This document shows, piece by piece, positions 392 to 46,802 of a stretch of 64,000 nucleotides of DNA. The position numbers and the translations under genes are program-made. Each line of letters starts with the position of its first letter. Position 1 is the first letter of the stretch. A model generated the notes under the pieces. It saw only the letters and a program-made list of their open reading frames with translations. It did not search any database and was not told the origin of the DNA. This DNA comes from a virus, in the IMG/VR virus record IMGVR_UViG_3300021185_003145, positions 1-64,000 of that record; one strand, 5' to 3'.

Positions 392-832
392 TTATAGATA
401 GTTTACTGCGTTTAGATCGTTTGCATCAAAAGTACGATACTGATCTGTGTTATTGATCGACGTTGTATTTACGACATCTTGGTAGTGAATATTAAGAGCA
501 TATTTCTCACATACTACTACAGCCACGTCGTAACCCGACTTACTGTTATATATTACTACACTTAGGTCCCGTTTGTCAAATCTTTCTGTTAAAAAAAGTG
601 TATAAAACATACCTAAAGCTCTTGCCGCTTCGCAGTACATGTTATCCACTAGTAGTGTCCATGGATCTGGCCAGTTTTCACAACTGTCAATATCCAAATA
701 ATGATTTACCAACGGAGCCATTTTCCATAAATCCGTTGTTTTTTGAAGCATATCCATCCTATCAAGATGCTGAATGCTTTTCCTGAATTTACGCCATTCA
801 GATATACGATCCTCAGGCCTTAAATCAAACAT
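392..832 (-). CDS. Hypothetical phage protein
   Basis: 146-aa ORF, co-directional and tightly packed. Confidence 0.7.
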   Translation of the reverse strand: MFDLRPEDRISEWRKFRKSIQHLDRMDMLQKTTDLWKMAPLVNHYLDIDSCENWPDPWTLLVDNMYCEAARALGMFYTLFLTERFDKRDLSVVIYNSKSGYDVAVVVCEKYALNIHYQDVVNTTSINNTDQYRTFDANDLNAVNYL

Positions 833-20961: not shown

Positions 20962-21993
20962 TTATACTCTTTTCATACAAGTATTCGAAGCCAGGCTTTT
21001 CCAATTTGTAGGACTTAGTTTTTTCAAGTCACCTATCTTAAGTGCCATTCTAAGACTCATTTCTCTAAGTTTCTTTCTGTTAGAAAACATAAACTCAAGA
21101 ATATCTTCTTCATCTTGTTTCTCAAATTTATATCCTTCAAACAAATCACCTTTTCTTGCAATTTGTTTAATCCTTAAAAAGCAATCTCTAGCAGTATCAA
21201 GTGTTAAGTCAATGTAATGACATCTTGACATAAGTGCATCTAAATGATCTTTAAGTTTTTTACTTCTAACATTATCAAATTTAATGTTAGTTACAAAACA
21301 AACACTACCTTTGAAATCAAAGTAATTAGGAATACCTTCAGTTCTTAGTTTACTACTATCTGCATTCCAGTATATACGTCTACGTTTACCACTATCAAGT
21401 GCCGCTTTAAGTATGTTTAAGGATAAATCGTCCATTAGCACACTATCACAATCATCAAATACTAGTACATCACCAGTTTGACTATATTCAAATAGTTTAG
21501 CATAAAGTCCAATTGGTGTCATTGCACCTTTACAAACTTCATATCGTGTAACACCAGCAAGTGCATCAAAACCACTTTGTTCTTCAAGTGTAGTTTCAAC
21601 ACCATATGATTTACCAACACCTGGAGGTCCAGTAACAATCATTGCTCGTACATCACCATTTTTTAGTGCAGAAGCCATTTCATTAAGTATCTCAAATCGC
21701 TCTTCAATTTCTACCATACGTTTTTCATCTTTTTCAGTAATAACTGAAGATTCTGCTTCAACTGGTATTGCTATGCTACCTGCATTTGGCTTATAAGCAT
21801 CTGCATCTACCATTTCAAGTTGCATAGGGCTAGTAACTTTAACACGGATTTTATCCATGCCAAATCCATTGCTACCATCTACAGTAACAAACATTCCGCT
21901 TTTGCCTTGTTTGAGATCTGATACTAGTGGAAACACAGTATCTTTAATTGCTTGGTTTCTGTAAAAACCTTCTTTAACTAAAACGTAACTCAT
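20962..21993 (-). CDS. AAA+ ATPase
   Basis: GPPGVGKS, VLVFDDCD, LKAALD, ALMSRC. Confidence 0.8.
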   Translation of the reverse strand: MSYVLVKEGFYRNQAIKDTVFPLVSDLKQGKSGMFVTVDGSNGFGMDKIRVKVTSPMQLEMVDADAYKPNAGSIAIPVEAESSVITEKDEKRMVEIEERFEILNEMASALKNGDVRAMIVTGPPGVGKSYGVETTLEEQSGFDALAGVTRYEVCKGAMTPIGLYAKLFEYSQTGDVLVFDDCDSVLMDDLSLNILKAALDSGKRRRIYWNADSSKLRTEGIPNYFDFKGSVCFVTNIKFDNVRSKKLKDHLDALMSRCHYIDLTLDTARDCFLRIKQIARKGDLFEGYKFEKQDEEDILEFMFSNRKKLREMSLRMALKIGDLKKLSPTNWKSLASNTCMKRV

Positions 21994-22030
21994 ATTGTAA
22001 TCCTTTTCATCGTTTTATGTTTATATTATT

Positions 22031-22058
22031 AATGTAGCATATCTATAGGATAAGTCAA
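22031..22058 (-). promoter_or_regulatory. Early sigma70-type promoter
   Basis: GG-TTGACT-N16-TACATT with extended TG. Confidence 0.65.
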
Positions 22059-22061
22059 CCT

Positions 22062-22205
22062 TTATTTTGTTGCTTTATAGATATCTTCAGCAGTTTGGTT
22101 AATAGTAGATTTTACATCATCTACTATTCCATCTACATTTCCGGGTGTTTGGTACACATACATTCCATATGCTCCAACTGCCATAAAAATAAGTGCTTTA
22201 ATCAT
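22062..22205 (-). CDS. 47-aa membrane-anchored protein (not in ORF track)
   Basis: MIKALIFMAVGAYGMYVYQTPGNVDGIVDDVKSTINQTAEDIYKATK; TAATG overlap with upstream stop. Confidence 0.65.
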   Translation of the reverse strand: MIKALIFMAVGAYGMYVYQTPGNVDGIVDDVKSTINQTAEDIYKATK

Positions 22206-22552
22206 TAGTCTAACCTACTTCCTGCATAAGCACGAAAACCGTACTTTTTAAATACATCAGCAGCCGCAATAGCACCTGCTTCTAATGTATCAACATTTTG
22301 ACATCCGTATCTTGAAGGATTCCACATATTAATTGAACCAGTATAATCCTTAGTTAAACCTGCTTCTTTAAAAGCCTTACCCATTTTAGTATTCATCTTA
22401 ATACCATAAATGTTAACCCAAGCAAAACCACATGCATAAGCATCTTCACCACCAAGTTCTTTCTTAAAAAACTTATCAGCGGCAATATAAGCGGCATCTT
22501 TTGCTTCTTGTATAATAGTTGGAATTTGATTTTCTGTAACTGAAACTGTCAT
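22205..22552 (-). CDS. Early hypothetical protein
   Basis: AGGAG RBS and own promoter; ACGFAWV motif. Confidence 0.8.
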   Translation of the reverse strand: MTVSVTENQIPTIIQEAKDAAYIAADKFFKKELGGEDAYACGFAWVNIYGIKMNTKMGKAFKEAGLTKDYTGSINMWNPSRYGCQNVDTLEAGAIAAADVFKKYGFRAYAGSRLD

Positions 22553-22583
22553 TGTCGACTCCTTTTGTTTAACTTACTATTAT

Positions 22584-22611
22584 ATAATAGCATCTATATA
22601 CAATCTGTCAA
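22584..22611 (-). promoter_or_regulatory. Early promoter
   Basis: AAAAAGG-TTGACA-N16-TATTAT with extended TG. Confidence 0.8.
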
Positions 22612-22669
22612 CCTTTTTCTGTCAGAAAAATGCCTAATATGTAAGAAAAATACATACTAGGCACTATTT

Positions 22670-22984
22670 CTATGATAAAGGAATTATCAAACCTTTTTGC
22701 TTCATAACAGCAGTGGCTTTTGCTGCTTCAAGTTTAGCATTAGACGGATCATTTTGGTCACCGTTATACTTTTTTGAAGTTTTGTTGTAATTCTTATTTT
22801 GCATAAGAGTGTATACAAACAAGTTATTAATATCTTGTCGGGTAACTAATTTACCCCCAAAAGTATTAACAATAGCAGATAACACAGGACCGAGCCTACT
22901 ATTATCCATTGTTGGTATGGTACTCTTTACAGTATTAATATTATTACAAACTGTTACAACTTCGTTCTTCTTTGATTTAGACAT
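22670..22984 (-). CDS. Early hypothetical basic protein (start reassigned to MSKSKK)
   Basis: AAAGGAG RBS 6 nt before ATG 22984. Confidence 0.7.
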   Translation of the reverse strand: MSKSKKNEVVTVCNNINTVKSTIPTMDNSRLGPVLSAIVNTFGGKLVTRQDINNLFVYTLMQNKNYNKTSKKYNGDQNDPSNAKLEAAKATAVMKQKGLIIPLS

Positions 22985-23004
22985 TTCTGTCTCCTTTATA
23001 TACA

Positions 23005-23055
23005 GGGCGATAATAAGGAAATAAGTTATGATGTCGCCCAAAAGCATCTAACTTA
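23005..23055 (-). ncRNA. Candidate H-type pseudoknot 5' leader
   Basis: Stems TAAGTTA-GATG / CATC-A-TAACTTA and GGGCGA / TCGCCC are interleaved. Confidence 0.55.
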
Positions 23056-23062
23056 CTGTTTT

Positions 23063-23090
23063 ATAATAACATCTTTGCTATATTTGTCAA
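23063..23090 (-). promoter_or_regulatory. Early promoter
   Basis: AAAAGG-TTGACA-N16-TATTAT. Confidence 0.8.
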
Positions 23091-23593
23091 CCTTTTATTT
23101 GCTTTTGTGCTATTTTAAATAAAGGTGTTTGTTTAACAGTATCTAACATACCGTTAAGTATCAGTTGCTTTTCTAAAAAATACACTTTTGCAAAGCCTGG
23201 ATCGTTTTTACCAATGCAAGCCGTGTTATCTACCAAATCTGCTAGTTTGATAATTTGTGCTTCTATCGGTGCAGACAATATATGCTTACGATCTATTGCT
23301 TTACGAACTGCACGATTACCATCTTCAAGTGTACTTTGATCAGTTAACCAATAAACCAAGTCAGCAATAGTAGTTCCAAACTTAATGCAAATATCATCTA
23401 GTGTAAAATCTGTATCTTCAACTACATCATGTAACAATGCCGCGGCAACTTGCTCAGTTGTTCCACCGTGATCATATACTAATTGAGCAACATCAATAGT
23501 GTGTGTTACATATGGAAGACCAGTATACTTACGTTTCTGATCTCCGTGGGCAACTACAGCAAATTTTAATGCTTTAGTTACTATTTTATCCAT
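23087..23593 (-). CDS. HD-domain (SpoT/Mesh1-like) small alarmone hydrolase
   Basis: AHGDQKRKYTGLPYVTH, ALLHDVVEDT, IKLADLVDN; start probably MDKIV at 23593. Confidence 0.85.
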   Translation of the reverse strand: MDKIVTKALKFAVVAHGDQKRKYTGLPYVTHTIDVAQLVYDHGGTTEQVAAALLHDVVEDTDFTLDDICIKFGTTIADLVYWLTDQSTLEDGNRAVRKAIDRKHILSAPIEAQIIKLADLVDNTACIGKNDPGFAKVYFLEKQLILNGMLDTVKQTPLFKIAQKQIKG

Positions 23594-23958
23594 TATGCAA
23601 TTCCTGTCCAACGTACAACTGATGTGTTCTTTGCATCAGTAAAAACATTACCACGTTTAAAGTTTGTTGCTGGTGCATTCCAACCGGCTGCTTTAAGCAT
23701 ATCGCCTTCTACAAAGCCTTTAGTTGCTTCTTTAACAATAAAGCCACTAACACTACCACCACCAAATGAACTTTTGTGGTCTTTTTTAATAAGTTTAATA
23801 TACTTTTGACCTTCTTTAATTTCAACTTCCCAATTATCAACAACTTCTTGCATGTATCCTGACAATGGTTTTGCACCACTATGTGTTGCCCAATCAATAT
23901 AACTTTGCTTCATTGTTTCAACTACTGTTTCACATGCTTCTAAAAGTTCTGCGTTCAT
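23593..23958 (-). CDS. Early phage protein
   Basis: GQKYIKL..GDMLKAAGWNAPA..RGNV motif typical of small phage proteins; own promoter. Confidence 0.8.
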   Translation of the reverse strand: MNAELLEACETVVETMKQSYIDWATHSGAKPLSGYMQEVVDNWEVEIKEGQKYIKLIKKDHKSSFGGGSVSGFIVKEATKGFVEGDMLKAAGWNAPATNFKRGNVFTDAKNTSVVRWTGIA

Positions 23959-23992
23959 AATGTTTACTTCCTTTTTGTTAACTTACTATTAC

Positions 23993-24020
23993 ATAATAGC
24001 ACTATTACAAGTTTTGTCAA
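23993..24020 (-). promoter_or_regulatory. Early promoter
   Basis: AAAAAGG-TTGACA-N16-TATTAT. Confidence 0.8.
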
Positions 24021-24033
24021 CCTTTTTAGTCAC

Positions 24034-24057
24034 AAAAAAACCCTTGTAAAACAAGGG
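24034..24057 (-). terminator. Intrinsic terminator
   Basis: CCCTTGT/ACAAGGG stem followed by T7 on minus strand. Confidence 0.7.
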
Positions 24058-24077
24058 CTTAAAAAGTTTTTTATTTT

Positions 24078-24269
24078 TTAATAATCTAGTTCAAATTTTT
24101 TGTTAGTATTTGCTTCACAGATGCTAATAATTTGTAACTTTTCTTCAAAATCATAATACTCAGCAAGTAGTACTTTTGCAACTTCTGTCTTATCTTCTGC
24201 CATCATTAACACACTTCGTTCGTCTGTGTTTTTATCAGTATTAAAGTTTACAATGTATCTGTTTTTCAT
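24078..24269 (-). CDS. Small early hypothetical protein
   Basis: GAGGAG RBS; TTGACA-N17-TATAGT promoter at 24296-24324. Confidence 0.75.
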   Translation of the reverse strand: MKNRYIVNFNTDKNTDERSVLMMAEDKTEVAKVLLAEYYDFEEKLQIISICEANTNKKFELDY

Positions 24270-24327
24270 ACTATTCTCCTCTATGTATAAGTTATACTAT
24301 ACATTAGAAAAACACAGATGTCAAGAC

Positions 24328-25188
24328 CTAAATTGGATTTATTGGCTTTTGTCTTAACTTTATATTATTCATAACTCTTTTGTACATTTTTTGGTATGTA
24401 TCATCAAATCCTTCAACAGGTTCAAGTACACCATCTAATTCATATATTGGTGTTTTTTCTCTTGGTCCGCAAAATATGTCAATAATACCACCATTTGAGA
24501 ATATGTTTACTCTGTTGCCAAAAAAGTTAGTTGGATTATAATTACGAACTGGTAGCCACCACATTAAGTAATCTAACTCGTCTAATAAGTTCCACATAAA
24601 CTCTAAATGTGTTTTACTATTATTAATTTCTACTAACATTTGCGGTCTGCATCTTTTTATAGTTTCTTGACATCCTGTTAGTACTTCTTTCTCGTAACCT
24701 TCAACATCAATTTTTATAAAATCACAACGTCCAAAGTTTAAACTATCAATCCTAACCATTGGCTTTGCTTCGTACAAACCTCCTGGATTTGCTTCTAGTA
24801 CACTACACTCTCCGTAGTTGCCAGGAATGCTTGGATTAAACGAACTAATAAAACTGCTACCATTACGGTCACCAACAATGTTTCCGTATACTTGTACATT
24901 CTTACATTGATTCTGATCAATGTTTTTTATTAGTAAATTTCTATTAAACTCATTTGGCTCAAATGCGGCTACTTGACCTTTAAAAGCATGTTTGGCAAAC
25001 CATACAGTATGCAAACCAAGATTAGCACCAATGTCTAAAACAAAGTCTCCAGGTTGAACTACATGATTAAGTAATAAAAACTCATTTTCTGCATATTCGC
25101 CGTACAACTCTAAGCTCTTACCAATGATAATATCATTTGTAAAATAACTAAACAATCCGTGCTTACATAATTTAGTTTGTATTCCCAT
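24328..25188 (-). CDS. FkbM-family methyltransferase
   Basis: LDIGANLG, AFEPN, FIKIDVEGYE. Confidence 0.9.
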   Translation of the reverse strand: MGIQTKLCKHGLFSYFTNDIIIGKSLELYGEYAENEFLLLNHVVQPGDFVLDIGANLGLHTVWFAKHAFKGQVAAFEPNEFNRNLLIKNIDQNQCKNVQVYGNIVGDRNGSSFISSFNPSIPGNYGECSVLEANPGGLYEAKPMVRIDSLNFGRCDFIKIDVEGYEKEVLTGCQETIKRCRPQMLVEINNSKTHLEFMWNLLDELDYLMWWLPVRNYNPTNFFGNRVNIFSNGGIIDIFCGPREKTPIYELDGVLEPVEGFDDTYQKMYKRVMNNIKLRQKPINPI

Positions 25189-28843: not shown

Positions 28844-29875
28844 TTACTTGTTGCTTTGACGTGATCTGATCATTGCTAGAATGTCTTCAGCACGTTGATT
28901 TCCACCTTCTTCGGCTGCTGGTGCAGTTGCACCCATTTCTGCCGGAGTTGCAACTGGAGCCGGTTGCATAACAGTTTCAGCAACTGGTTGAGCGACCGGA
29001 GCAGGAGACGATTCTGCTACTGGTGCCACAGGTGCCGCTGTTGCAACTGGAGTAGGTGTTGGAGCATTTGAGCCTTCAGGTCTAGCCATTCCAGCAGGAC
29101 GATAGTATGATGCATACTTGTCCGGATCATATGCTTTTCCATCTACACTATCTTCAAACATTTGTTTAATAATAGCCAGTTCTGTTTCAGATGGTTTCTT
29201 TGGCAAGAAGTCATTCAAGTCAAACAATCCGTTTGTATCTACTGCTGACTGCTCTTCTTCAGTAATTGCAGTCTCTTTACGAGCCCAATTACTTGTTGAA
29301 TAGTCTGCATAGCCACCTTTTGATGTCTTTACAACACGGAAGTCTAAACCTTTTGAGTAATCAGTTGGCATTTCTTCCATATCCGGGTCCATTAAACTTG
29401 CTTTAATAATATTAAACAGTTGTGGTCCCATAATGAATCTACGAACTGGATTCTCAGGAGATGTTTCTTCTAATGGATTATCACGAACAAAACCTTGGAA
29501 TAAGTAAGATTTCTTTTTCCAGTATTTTCTACCCATATCTTCTAAAGAACTATCTTTAAACCATGGACGTACTTCTGCAAGAATTGGGCAAGAACCAGTT
29601 GGCTCCCACATTTCCATACATGGTACTTGTACTACTGTAGTTTTTGTTTCGTTATCACCTACAATACCTTGAAATGGTAAACGAATCATTGCTCGCTCTA
29701 CCCAAAAGAATGTATTGTTAGGATTAGAGTCTGGAAGGAAACGAATAGTGGCTGTTTCGCCTTCGTTAATATTCCAGTGTGGATAAATGGCGTTGTCGCC
29801 ATATGTATTGGAGTTACCGTTTGAACGGGTTTCTTGTGCTTGTAATTTTGCACGGATTTCTGCTAATGATGCCAT
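28844..29875 (-). CDS. gp32: Single-stranded DNA binding protein (T4 gp32-like)
   Basis: IRFLPD, CPIL, KYWKKKSY, GGYADYSTSNW; adjacent to uvsX. Confidence 0.88.
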   Translation of the reverse strand: MASLAEIRAKLQAQETRSNGNSNTYGDNAIYPHWNINEGETATIRFLPDSNPNNTFFWVERAMIRLPFQGIVGDNETKTTVVQVPCMEMWEPTGSCPILAEVRPWFKDSSLEDMGRKYWKKKSYLFQGFVRDNPLEETSPENPVRRFIMGPQLFNIIKASLMDPDMEEMPTDYSKGLDFRVVKTSKGGYADYSTSNWARKETAITEEEQSAVDTNGLFDLNDFLPKKPSETELAIIKQMFEDSVDGKAYDPDKYASYYRPAGMARPEGSNAPTPTPVATAAPVAPVAESSPAPVAQPVAETVMQPAPVATPAEMGATAPAAEEGGNQRAEDILAMIRSRQSNK

Positions 29876-46774: not shown

Positions 46775-46802
46775 ATAATACACTGTTTTGTTTGTATGTC
46801 AA
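46775..46802 (-). promoter_or_regulatory. Early promoter
   Basis: AAAGG-TTGACA-N16-TATTAT. Confidence 0.75.

What the first reader, a model, noticed from the sequence alone, without database searches (positions are those of the whole stretch)
22985..23058. H-type pseudoknot leader with a built-in anti-Shine-Dalgarno: candidate translational switch
Seen in the mRNA just after the promoter: UAAGUUAGAUG-CUUUU-GGGCGA-CAUCAUAACUUA-UUUCCUUAUUA-UCGCCC-UGUAUAU-AAAGGAG-acagaa-AUG. Stem 1 is 11 bp with one bulge. Stem 2 is 6 bp, GC-rich and stacks directly on stem 1. Loop 3 contains UUCCUU, complementary to the AAGGAG RBS, so opening stem 2 could hide the RBS. Established: preQ1 and SAM-II/V riboswitches, the T4 gene 32 operator and type III antitoxin RNAs are compact H-type pseudoknots. 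Inference: a riboswitch or protein-binding operator for an unknown 104-aa basic protein located next to an alarmone hydrolase.
Basis: partly seen in the sequence, partly recalled or inferred. Interest (0 to 1): 0.7.

Follow-up and report, generated by a model that had tools for sequence, protein, structure and literature searches.

The report
Folded leader on a phage early gene
One early gene of an uncultured marine giant phage carries an unusually long RNA leader that can fold into a compact knot touching both its 5' end and its ribosome-binding site; it most likely tunes that gene's translation or mRNA stability, and nothing suggests it senses a small molecule.

Summary
The leader lies between a near-consensus sigma-70 early promoter and the SD of a 104-aa gene. 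A pseudoknot scan of the whole 91.7-kb record found only this site. Forty shuffled genomes gave none as strong.

The context changes the reading. The 5' arm of S1 is the conserved +1 motif AGTAAGTTA of a promoter/leader cassette found about 79 times in related marine phages. Those leaders are 23-36 nt; this one is 73 nt, the longest. The extra 51 nt carries complements to the 5' motif and to the SD, plus the GC clamp.

Only one relative could be fetched (93% identical). Its stems are unchanged, and all three of its leader substitutions fall in loop 1. One of them puts a stop codon in the upstream frame, so the leader is non-coding. No covariation test was possible.

There is no Rfam match.

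Best reading: a lineage-specific cis-acting leader that masks the SD and/or protects the 5' end. The riboswitch and protein-operator readings remain unproven.

The scan had already noted the cassette array on this window.

The parts
23063..23090 (-). Early promoter: -35 TTGACA (23090..23085), 16-nt spacer with TG at 23071..23070, -10 TATTAT (23068..23063). It overlaps the stop codon of the upstream HD gene.
   Evidence: The same module occurs at 24020, 22611 and 579, and 70 times in IMG/VR.
23045..23057 (-). Predicted transcript start (A23057 or G23056) and S1 5' arm (23055..23045). Positions 23057..23049 are the conserved +1 motif AGTAAGTTA.
   Evidence: The start is inferred from the distance to the -10 element. 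The motif is shared by about 79 promoter modules. An RNA contig in run X18 ends at 23046.
23040..23044 (-). Loop 1, CUUUU. It reads CCAUA in the 93%-identical relative.
23034..23039 (-). S2 5' arm, GGGCGA, inside the S1 hairpin loop.
23022..23033 (-). S1 3' arm, CAUCAUAACUUA, with one bulged A. It is the complement of the conserved 5' motif.
23011..23021 (-). Loop 3, UUUCCUUAUUA. UUUCCUU (23021..23015) is the anti-SD and can pair with AAGGAGA (helix S3).
23005..23010 (-). S2 3' arm, UCGCCC.
22982..22997 (-). SD AAAGGAG (22997..22991), spacer, and AUG (22984..22982). A small AGACA/UGUCU hairpin lies around the AUG.
22670..22984 (-). Gene for a 104-aa basic protein (pI 9.9) with no Pfam or PHROG family. 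The AlphaFold model has pLDDT 88.8, with only weak winged-helix/RRE-like fold matches (Z 5-7).
22612..22681 (-). Strong terminator hairpin followed by a U run, then the next early promoter. This is a PeSL-like junction.
   Evidence: (-29.2 kcal/mol, z -5.7).

Best explanation
This is a lineage-specific, cis-acting structured mRNA leader.

The phage family uses a standard early cassette: promoter, then AGUAAGUUA-AACAA-AAGGAG, then AUG. Here a 51-nt insert splits that cassette. The insert carries three things: (i) a complement to the transcript's conserved 5' motif, (ii) a complement to the SD, and (iii) a GC-rich 6-mer pair linking the two regions.

The RNA therefore folds from its first nucleotides into a 5'-terminal 11-bp hairpin. 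That hairpin is clamped by S2 into an H-type pseudoknot, or into a three-helix kissing fold that also includes anti-SD:SD.

The likely effect is gene-specific tuning. The 5' end would be protected from 5'-end-dependent decay, and ribosome access to the SD would be reduced or conditional. A gene driven by the same strong promoter as its neighbours would then be expressed differently.

Shown: the sequence anatomy, its rarity, its position, and that it is non-coding and kept in one relative. Inferred: the fold, the transcript start and every functional effect.
For: - Anatomy: helices and coordinates were verified.
- Rarity: it is the only H-type site in the 91.7-kb record, and 0 of 40 shuffled genomes gave one as strong.
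- Outlier length: among 79 distinct promoter+AGTAAG modules, 71 have 23-36 nt from +1 to ATG. This one has 73 nt and is the longest. The extra 51 nt is single-copy.
- Double complementarity: complements to both the 5' motif and the SD, each as good as observed, occur together in 0.75% of shuffled inserts.
- Independent analogue: one other long leader (L157, 60 nt) also pairs its +1 motif GUAAGU with a downstream ACUUAC. It has three G.U pairs and its own SD-masking hairpin. This points to an RNA-level, recurring design.
- Conservation: in the relative (92.8% identical over 6.3 kb, about 4% divergent locally), all 3 leader substitutions lie in L1. They create ATG-CCA-TAG, so the upstream in-frame ORF is not conserved.
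- SD masking: nested ensemble SD unpaired 0.045, anti-SD:SD pair probability 0.58.
- Transcript: a metatranscriptome contig runs from the CDS through the leader to 23046, about 10 nt short of the predicted start.
Against: - No covariation: only one relative could be read, and its stems are simply identical. With about 4% local divergence, 69 unchanged positions have p of about 0.06.
- Taken singly, the anti-SD (8% of shuffles) and the 5' complement (7%) are weak.
- Pseudoknot and kissing energies are hand sums with generic penalties, not a validated prediction.
- The transcript start is inferred, not mapped.
- A DNA contig of a diverged relative (run X7) matches only 22896..22990. Its 30 nt upstream of that are different and lack UCGCCC. 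So the leader may not travel with the gene family.
Confidence: 0.45

Rival explanations
1. It is a protein-binding operator. The knot, or the S1 hairpin with its GGGCGA loop, is bound by a phage protein, possibly the basic 104-aa product itself. Binding would repress or activate translation, as T4 gp32 and RegA act on their own leaders.
For: The product is basic (pI 9.9). Its confident model gives mostly winged-helix/RRE-like matches such as MukF, JetA, PerR and E2F-DP (Z 5-7). The gene is a self-contained promoter-leader-ORF-terminator unit. L1 varies while both stems are kept.
Against: Z of 5-7 lies within the noise range stated by the tool, and Foldseek found nothing. No nucleic-acid-binding family was hit in Pfam or PHROGs. 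A diverged relative appears to lack this leader.
Confidence: 0.15
2. It is only a 5'-terminal stabiliser hairpin. S1 protects the mRNA from 5'-end-dependent RNase E/RppH decay, as the ompA-type 5' stem-loops do. S2 and the anti-SD would then be fortuitous.
For: S1 begins 0-2 nt from the predicted transcript start. A second long leader (L157) also sequesters the same 5' motif. The anti-SD alone is matched by 8% of shuffles.
Against: The S1+S2 combination was not reached in any of 40 shuffled genomes. A perfect 6-bp helix with five G-C pairs in a 36% GC genome is unlikely to be idle. S2 is unchanged in the relative.
Confidence: 0.15
3. It is a non-functional by-product. The insert is a scar of cassette-mediated recombination, and its complementarities are tolerated rather than selected.
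For: The leader is confined to one lineage, the window and a 93% relative. Early cassettes of T4-type phages are known recombination substrates (PMC2839356, PMC4122927). No covariation is available.
Against: It is statistically rare. The insert is single-copy with no donor found. All leader substitutions avoid the stems, L3 and the SD. L157 shows a parallel design.
Confidence: 0.12
4. It is a ligand-sensing riboswitch of the compact pseudoknot type, like preQ1 or SAM-II/V. A metabolite would stabilise S2 and change SD access.
For: It has a compact H-type topology with an anti-SD nearby. SD accessibility differs 10-fold between the modelled states.
Against: No Rfam family matched, even at E up to 10. 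L1, which would line the S2 groove and form the pocket in known pseudoknot riboswitches, has 3 of 5 positions changed in a 93% relative. Only two sequences exist. The downstream gene has no metabolic annotation. The knot is predicted to be stable without any ligand.
Confidence: 0.05
5. It is a DNA-level operator, or a put-like cis-antiterminator RNA. Either the S1 inverted repeat is a repressor site at +3..+36, or the promoter-proximal structure modifies RNA polymerase so that it reads through the strong terminator at 22629.
For: The inverted repeat overlaps the start region. An RNA contig spans the terminator into the next gene.
Against: Interleaved repeats make no sense for a DNA site. The L157 analogue uses G.U pairs. 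A contig spanning two genes does not show a single transcript, because the next promoter lies in between. There was no Rfam hit.
Confidence: 0.05

Closest known systems
SD-sequestering mRNA leaders of phage and bacterial genes (for example the inhibitory leader hairpins of T4 late genes e and soc, and fourU/ROSE-type elements)
   Same: A pyrimidine anti-SD (UUUCCUU) inside the leader can pair with the gene's own AAGGAGA. In the nested ensemble the SD is almost always paired.
   Different: Here the anti-SD sits in loop 3 of a possible pseudoknot, between two other helices. A GC clamp may either free it or lock it. There is no sequence homology, and the effect is untested.
5'-terminal stabiliser stem-loops (E. 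coli ompA 5' UTR type)
   Same: The hairpin starts within about 2 nt of the predicted 5' end.
   Different: The 5' arm is a motif shared by all early transcripts of this phage family, and only this leader and L157 supply the complement. The transcript start and mRNA half-life were not measured.
T4 gene 32 autoregulatory leader pseudoknot
   Same: It is an H-type pseudoknot with coaxially stacked stems at the extreme 5' end of a phage mRNA leader, in a T4-related myovirus.
   Different: The gene 32 knot is followed by a long unstructured AU-rich tract that gp32 coats, whereas here only 7 nt separate the knot from the SD. The regulated gene is not the SSB; the SSB homologue is at 28844..29875.
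PeSL promoter-terminator cassettes of T4-type phages (PMC2839356, PMC4122927)
   Same: A near-consensus sigma-70 early promoter is repeated before small early genes. A terminator hairpin plus the next promoter follows directly after the 104-aa gene.
   Different: The feature in question is an insert inside the cassette's leader, which is not part of the PeSL definition. This promoter has no stem-loop directly upstream.
preQ1-I/II/III, SAM-II and SAM-V pseudoknot riboswitches
   Same: Small H-type topology next to an SD.
   Different: No covariance-model match. Loop 1 is not conserved. There is no related metabolic gene downstream.

Membership tests
H-type RNA pseudoknot (structural class) | Two helices with interleaved arms (A-B-A'-B'), the second formed between the hairpin loop and downstream sequence | tested here: met
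   S1 has 11 bp plus a bulge, S2 is 6 bp perfect, and L2 = 0.
H-type RNA pseudoknot (structural class) | Base pairs supported by compensatory changes in relatives | tested here: inconclusive
   The only readable relative (L001=L005=L120, 92.8% identical) has identical stems. Its 3 substitutions are all in L1.
H-type RNA pseudoknot (structural class) | Both helices form in the RNA (chemical or enzymatic probing) | not testable with these tools
   Only thermodynamic sums are available: H-type about -13 to -18, kissing fold about -19 to -24.5, nested fold -14.1 kcal/mol.
preQ1 / SAM-II / SAM-V riboswitches | Match to the family covariance model | tested here: not met
   cmscan of 21500..24500 at E up to 10 found no riboswitch family and nothing overlapping 22985..23058.
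preQ1 / SAM-II / SAM-V riboswitches | Conserved loop nucleotides lining the ligand pocket | tested here: not met
   L1 reads CUUUU here and CCAUA in a 93% relative.
T4 gene 32-type translational operator | 5' pseudoknot followed by a long unstructured AU-rich tract up to the start codon | tested here: not met
   Only 7 nt (UGUAUAU) lie between S2 and the SD.
T4 gene 32-type translational operator | The regulated gene encodes the single-strand DNA-binding protein | tested here: not met
   The 104-aa product has no family. The SSB homologue is at 28844..29875.
Early promoter/leader cassette of this phage group (PeSL-like) | aaaGG-TTGACA-N16-TATTAT-N5-AGTAAGT, followed by a short leader with AAGGAG | tested here: met
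   The promoter, 5' motif and SD are present. However, the leader is 73 nt against the usual 23-36 nt.
Early promoter/leader cassette of this phage group (PeSL-like) | Terminator stem-loop immediately upstream of the promoter | tested here: not met
   The HD gene stop (23087..23089) overlaps the -35 element, and no hairpin lies upstream. A PeSL-type junction lies downstream at 22681..22584.
SD-sequestering leader | Intramolecular anti-SD able to pair with the SD | tested here: met
   UUUCCUU:AAGGAGA forms 7 bp at about -6.5 to -6.8 kcal/mol with pair probability 0.58. It is as good in 8% of shuffles.
SD-sequestering leader | Reduced translation that depends on the pairing | not testable with these tools
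   This needs reporter or toeprint assays.
5'-terminal stabiliser hairpin | Stem begins within a few nucleotides of the mapped 5' end | tested here: inconclusive
   The start is predicted 6-7 nt after the -10 element, at 23057/23056, and S1 starts at 23055. The RNA contig end at 23046 is compatible with this but does not map the start.
Type III antitoxin RNA (ToxI-like) | Tandem array of about 36-nt repeats next to an endoribonuclease toxin gene | tested here: not met
   The insert is single-copy in the record. No toxin family was hit.

The most novel reading that the evidence does not exclude
The leader is a true three-state riboregulator built from the phage's own cassette parts. A trans factor would shift it between a knot with a free SD and a kissing fold with a masked SD. 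That factor could be the winged-helix-like 104-aa product, another early-phase protein, or an 'anti-leader' RNA of the kind noted in related giant phages. The result would be a temporal switch specific to one early gene, and a class of phage regulator not yet described.
Probability: 0.1. Interest if true: 0.6.

Novelty: new member of a known kind. Interest (0 to 1): 0.3.

Why it matters
If the fold is real, it shows how a giant phage with one standard strong promoter/leader cassette can individualise the expression of a single gene. It does so by inserting about 50 nt that pairs with the cassette's own 5' end and ribosome-binding site. This would be a compact, testable example of modular RNA control. 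It would also suggest that the 104-aa orphan protein needs special dosing. The leader does not open a long-standing question, and for now it rests on two nearly identical sequences.

Tried and rejected
The genomic contexts of the 81-86% and 34-56% identical homologues (P0002-P0004, P0006, P0010-P0012, P0015) could therefore not be read. This blocked the covariation test.
- Protein-pattern scans: viral contigs, metagenome contigs and genome contigs gave only the 93% relative and one truncated contig. One search failed for lack of a conserved stretch.
- BLAST against GenBank phages: blastn with the region and tblastn with homologue P0006 found no match.
- DNA-pattern scans for the promoter, the 5' motif and its complement returned mostly chance hits. 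Only L120 and L157 carry a -35 element.
- Read laying on 2 RNA and 2 DNA runs showed no variants in the leader. Both RNA runs have no cover over 23060..23147. One RNA contig (X15) starts at 22994, the GGAG of the SD, which might hint at processing but could be an assembly break. Contig depths cannot rank genes.
- Coding reading of the leader (125-aa ORF from ATG 23047): rejected, because the relative has a TAG two codons in.
- RegA and RegB families were not found in the 91.7-kb fragment. This is uninformative, because the controls did not ring either.
- Function of the 104-aa protein: the ESM Atlas gave only noise-level hits and Foldseek against PDB gave nothing.
- A related 335-kb contig in a MAG lacks hits with the 104-aa and HD protein queries and has only one exact promoter match.
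- The SSB leader and the orphan promoter at 579 showed no significant fold.
- RNA thermometer and xrRNA readings were considered and dropped for lack of any support.

Full report
**1. What is there**

The genes in this part of the window run on the minus strand. The minus-strand sequence from 23090 down to 22982 contains these elements in order:
- a near-consensus sigma-70 promoter, TTGACA, a 16-nt spacer ending in TGT, then TATTAT (23090..23063)
- five nucleotides, then AGUAAGUUAGAUG
- CUUUU, GGGCGA, CAUCAUAACUUA, UUUCCUUAUUA, UCGCCC, UGUAUAU
- AAAGGAG, ACAGAA and AUG (22984)

S1 has 11 Watson-Crick pairs with one bulged A. S2 has six perfect pairs, five of them G-C. No nucleotide separates the S2 5' arm from the S1 3' arm.

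The ORF that follows encodes 104 aa with pI 9.9. A very strong terminator hairpin follows it (-29.2 kcal/mol, z -5.7), and then the next promoter. The gene is therefore a self-contained promoter-leader-ORF-terminator unit.

**2. Is it more than chance?**

The nested fold alone is only mildly unusual (z -2.0). I wrote an explicit scan for H-type arrangements. It required a perfect S2 6-mer with at least 4 G/C, an enclosing S1 of at least 7 pairs at -6 kcal/mol or better, and sensible loop lengths.
- On both strands of the whole 91,666-b record it found exactly one site, this one.
- Forty dinucleotide-preserving shuffles of the record gave a mean of 0.15 sites, and none with an S1 of -9 or better and an S2 of -10 or better.

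The site lies precisely between a promoter and an SD, which lowers the chance expectation further.

**3. Context that changes the reading**

The window belongs to an IMG/VR virus record that CheckV rates 25% complete.
- Its major capsid protein is 64-65% identical to those of jumbo myoviruses: Sinorhizobium phage Phosso, Vibrio phage 2.275.O and Pseudomonas phage PA5oct.
- It carries T4-type replication and tail genes.
- PA5oct is reported to rely on the host RNA polymerase (PMC7318152), which fits sigma-70-type early promoters.

The same promoter recurs at 24020, 22611 and 579 in the window. In each case AGTAAGT(TA) follows five bases after the -10 element. An exact-pattern scan of IMG/VR found 70 such modules in 64 stretches from marine phages. 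Almost all continue as AGTAAGTTAAACAAAAGGAG, then 5-8 nt, then ATG.

With a relaxed pattern I collected 79 distinct modules.
- In 71 of them the distance from +1 to ATG is 23-36 nt.
- The longer ones are 40, 48 (a tRNA), 55, 60 (L157) and 73 nt.
- The 73-nt leader is this one together with its near-identical copy.

So the S1 5' arm is not a private sequence. It is the conserved start of all early transcripts of this phage group. What is special here is a 51-nt insert (23048..22998) between that motif and the SD. The insert is single-copy in the record and in about 220 held loci.

This cassette architecture resembles the PeSL promoter-terminator modules described for T4-type phages (PMC2839356, PMC4122927).

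**4. What the insert encodes**

The insert carries three features:
- GAUG...CAUC plus UAACUUA, which together complete S1 against the conserved 5' motif
- UUUCCUU, which can form 7 pairs with AAGGAGA (helix S3; about -6.5 to -6.8 kcal/mol)
- the GGGCGA/UCGCCC pair

Taken singly, a 5' complement or an anti-SD as good as the observed one appears in 7% and 8% of shuffled inserts. Both together appear in 0.75%.

In the nested ensemble of the first 103 nt, the GGAG of the SD is unpaired with probability 0.045, and the anti-SD:SD pairs reach 0.58. If S1 is fixed and L3 and the S2 arms are held unavailable, to mimic the H-type knot, the SD is unpaired with probability 0.49.

However, S1, S2 and S3 do not overlap in sequence, so all three could form at once. 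The result would be a kissing-loop fold: two adjacent hairpins whose loops pair through S2. My rough sums use S1 stacks of -12.6, S2 of -14.3 and S3 of -9.6, with generic penalties of 9 and 12 kcal/mol. They give:
- H-type knot: about -13 to -18 kcal/mol
- three-helix fold: about -19 to -24.5 kcal/mol
- best nested fold: -14.1 kcal/mol

These are hand estimates, not validated predictions. They show only that a tertiary fold is plausible and that the direction of any switch is undetermined.

**5. Comparative evidence**

Homologues of the 104-aa protein exist at 81-86% and 34-56% identity. Pattern scans of the three DNA collections returned only one usable relative. That relative is L001=L005=L120, 92.8% identical over 6.3 kb and about 4% divergent locally.

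In the 111 nt of promoter plus leader it differs at four positions. One is in the extended -10 element. The other three are all in L1, changing CUUUU to CCAUA. S1, S2, L3 and the SD are unchanged.
- This is compatible with selection on the fold, but it has little statistical power (p about 0.06).
- It offers no compensatory change.
- It does settle one rival. In the window an in-frame ATG at 23047 opens a 125-aa reading. In the relative the L1 changes give ATG-CCA-TAG, so the leader is non-coding.
- The free variation of L1 also argues against a ligand pocket of the preQ1 or SAM-II kind.

A second, unrelated long leader (L157) gives independent support for an RNA-level 5' hairpin. Its GUAAGU start pairs with a downstream ACUUAC in an 11-pair stem with three G.U pairs, and an AUCUU:GAGAU hairpin covers its SD. 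Among true promoter modules in IMG/VR, only these two leaders carry a perfect complement to the 5' motif.

Against conservation, a DNA contig of a diverged relative in run X7 matches only 22896..22990 and then reads differently upstream, without UCGCCC.

**6. Expression**

The stretch occurs in many seawater metagenomes and in six metatranscriptome runs.
- One RNA contig (X18) runs from 22521 through the CDS and leader to 23046. That is about 10 nt short of the predicted start.
- Another (X15) covers 22660..22994.
- Both RNA runs lack cover over 23060..23147, where the DNA runs continue.

These are weak hints that transcription starts at the predicted promoter. Contigs cannot map ends or rank expression.

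**7. The downstream protein**

It has no Pfam or PHROG family. AlphaFold2 on a 9-sequence alignment gives pLDDT 88.8. Foldseek against PDB finds nothing. VIA-align gives Z 5-7 matches dominated by winged-helix/RRE-like domains such as MukF, JetA, PerR, E2F-DP and PqqD-like proteins. This is within the tool's stated noise range. A nucleic-acid-binding and possibly autoregulatory role is therefore only a lead.

**8. Known families**

Rfam at E up to 10 finds nothing at the site.
- The T4 gene 32 operator shares the 5' knot, but not the long unstructured tract or the SSB gene.
- ToxI-like antitoxins need tandem repeats, which are absent.
- The closest functional kinds are SD-sequestering leaders and 5'-terminal stabiliser hairpins.

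**9. Verdict**

The interpretation as a riboswitch or operator is neither shown nor excluded.

I judge the best-supported reading to be a lineage-specific, constitutive or factor-modulated structured leader that tunes the translation and stability of one early gene (0.45). The rivals are:
- a protein operator (0.15)
- a plain 5' stabiliser (0.15)
- a recombination by-product (0.12)
- a riboswitch (0.05)
- a DNA operator or put-like element (0.05)

Interest is moderate to low, because the case rests on two nearly identical sequences and has no functional data.

Noticed in passing
window 22584..22611, 23993..24020, 550..579 and 46775..46802 (minus strand), plus about 64 IMG/VR stretches (L121-L183): A highly conserved early cassette, aaaGG-TTGACA-N16-TATTAT-N5-AGTAAGTTAAACAAAAGGAG-N5-8-ATG, is shared by a large group of marine phages. 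The invariant transcript start AGUAAGUUA has no explained function.
   Followed up: partly
L157:2741-2840 (+): A second long leader (60 nt) sits before a P-loop ATPase-like gene. Its conserved +1 motif pairs with a downstream ACUUAC in an 11-bp stem with three G.U pairs, and an AUCUU:GAGAU hairpin covers its SD.
   Followed up: partly
window 400..579 (minus strand): A cassette-type promoter is followed by AGTAAGTCGGG... with no SD-linked ORF nearby, only a 10-codon frame. It could be a long leader or a small RNA. The fold is not significant (z -1.0), and the transcript runs towards the start of the window.
   Followed up: partly
window 22994/22995 (minus strand): A metatranscriptome contig (run X15) covering the 104-aa CDS begins exactly at the GGAG of the SD, just after the AU-rich UGUAUAUAAA. 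This may be a processing site or only an assembly break.
   Followed up: no
L183:2307-2420 (+): In a related phage contig the same early promoter module drives a tRNA-like sequence (GGGTGTAGCTCAGCC...) instead of a protein gene.
   Followed up: no
L228-L231 (contig PBPT01000016.1, 335,231 b, filed as a Candidatus Neomarinimicrobiota MAG): This contig encodes a major capsid protein 72% identical to the window's and carries one cassette-type promoter. It is probably a near-complete related jumbo phage binned into a bacterial MAG. Queries with the window's 104-aa and HD proteins found no match in it.
   Followed up: partly
window 23087..23611 (minus strand): The upstream gene is a stand-alone HD_4 (RelA/SpoT-type) phosphohydrolase of 174 aa (Pfam E 5e-16; phrog_990). 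Its stop codon overlaps the -35 element of the 104-aa gene's promoter.
   Followed up: partly
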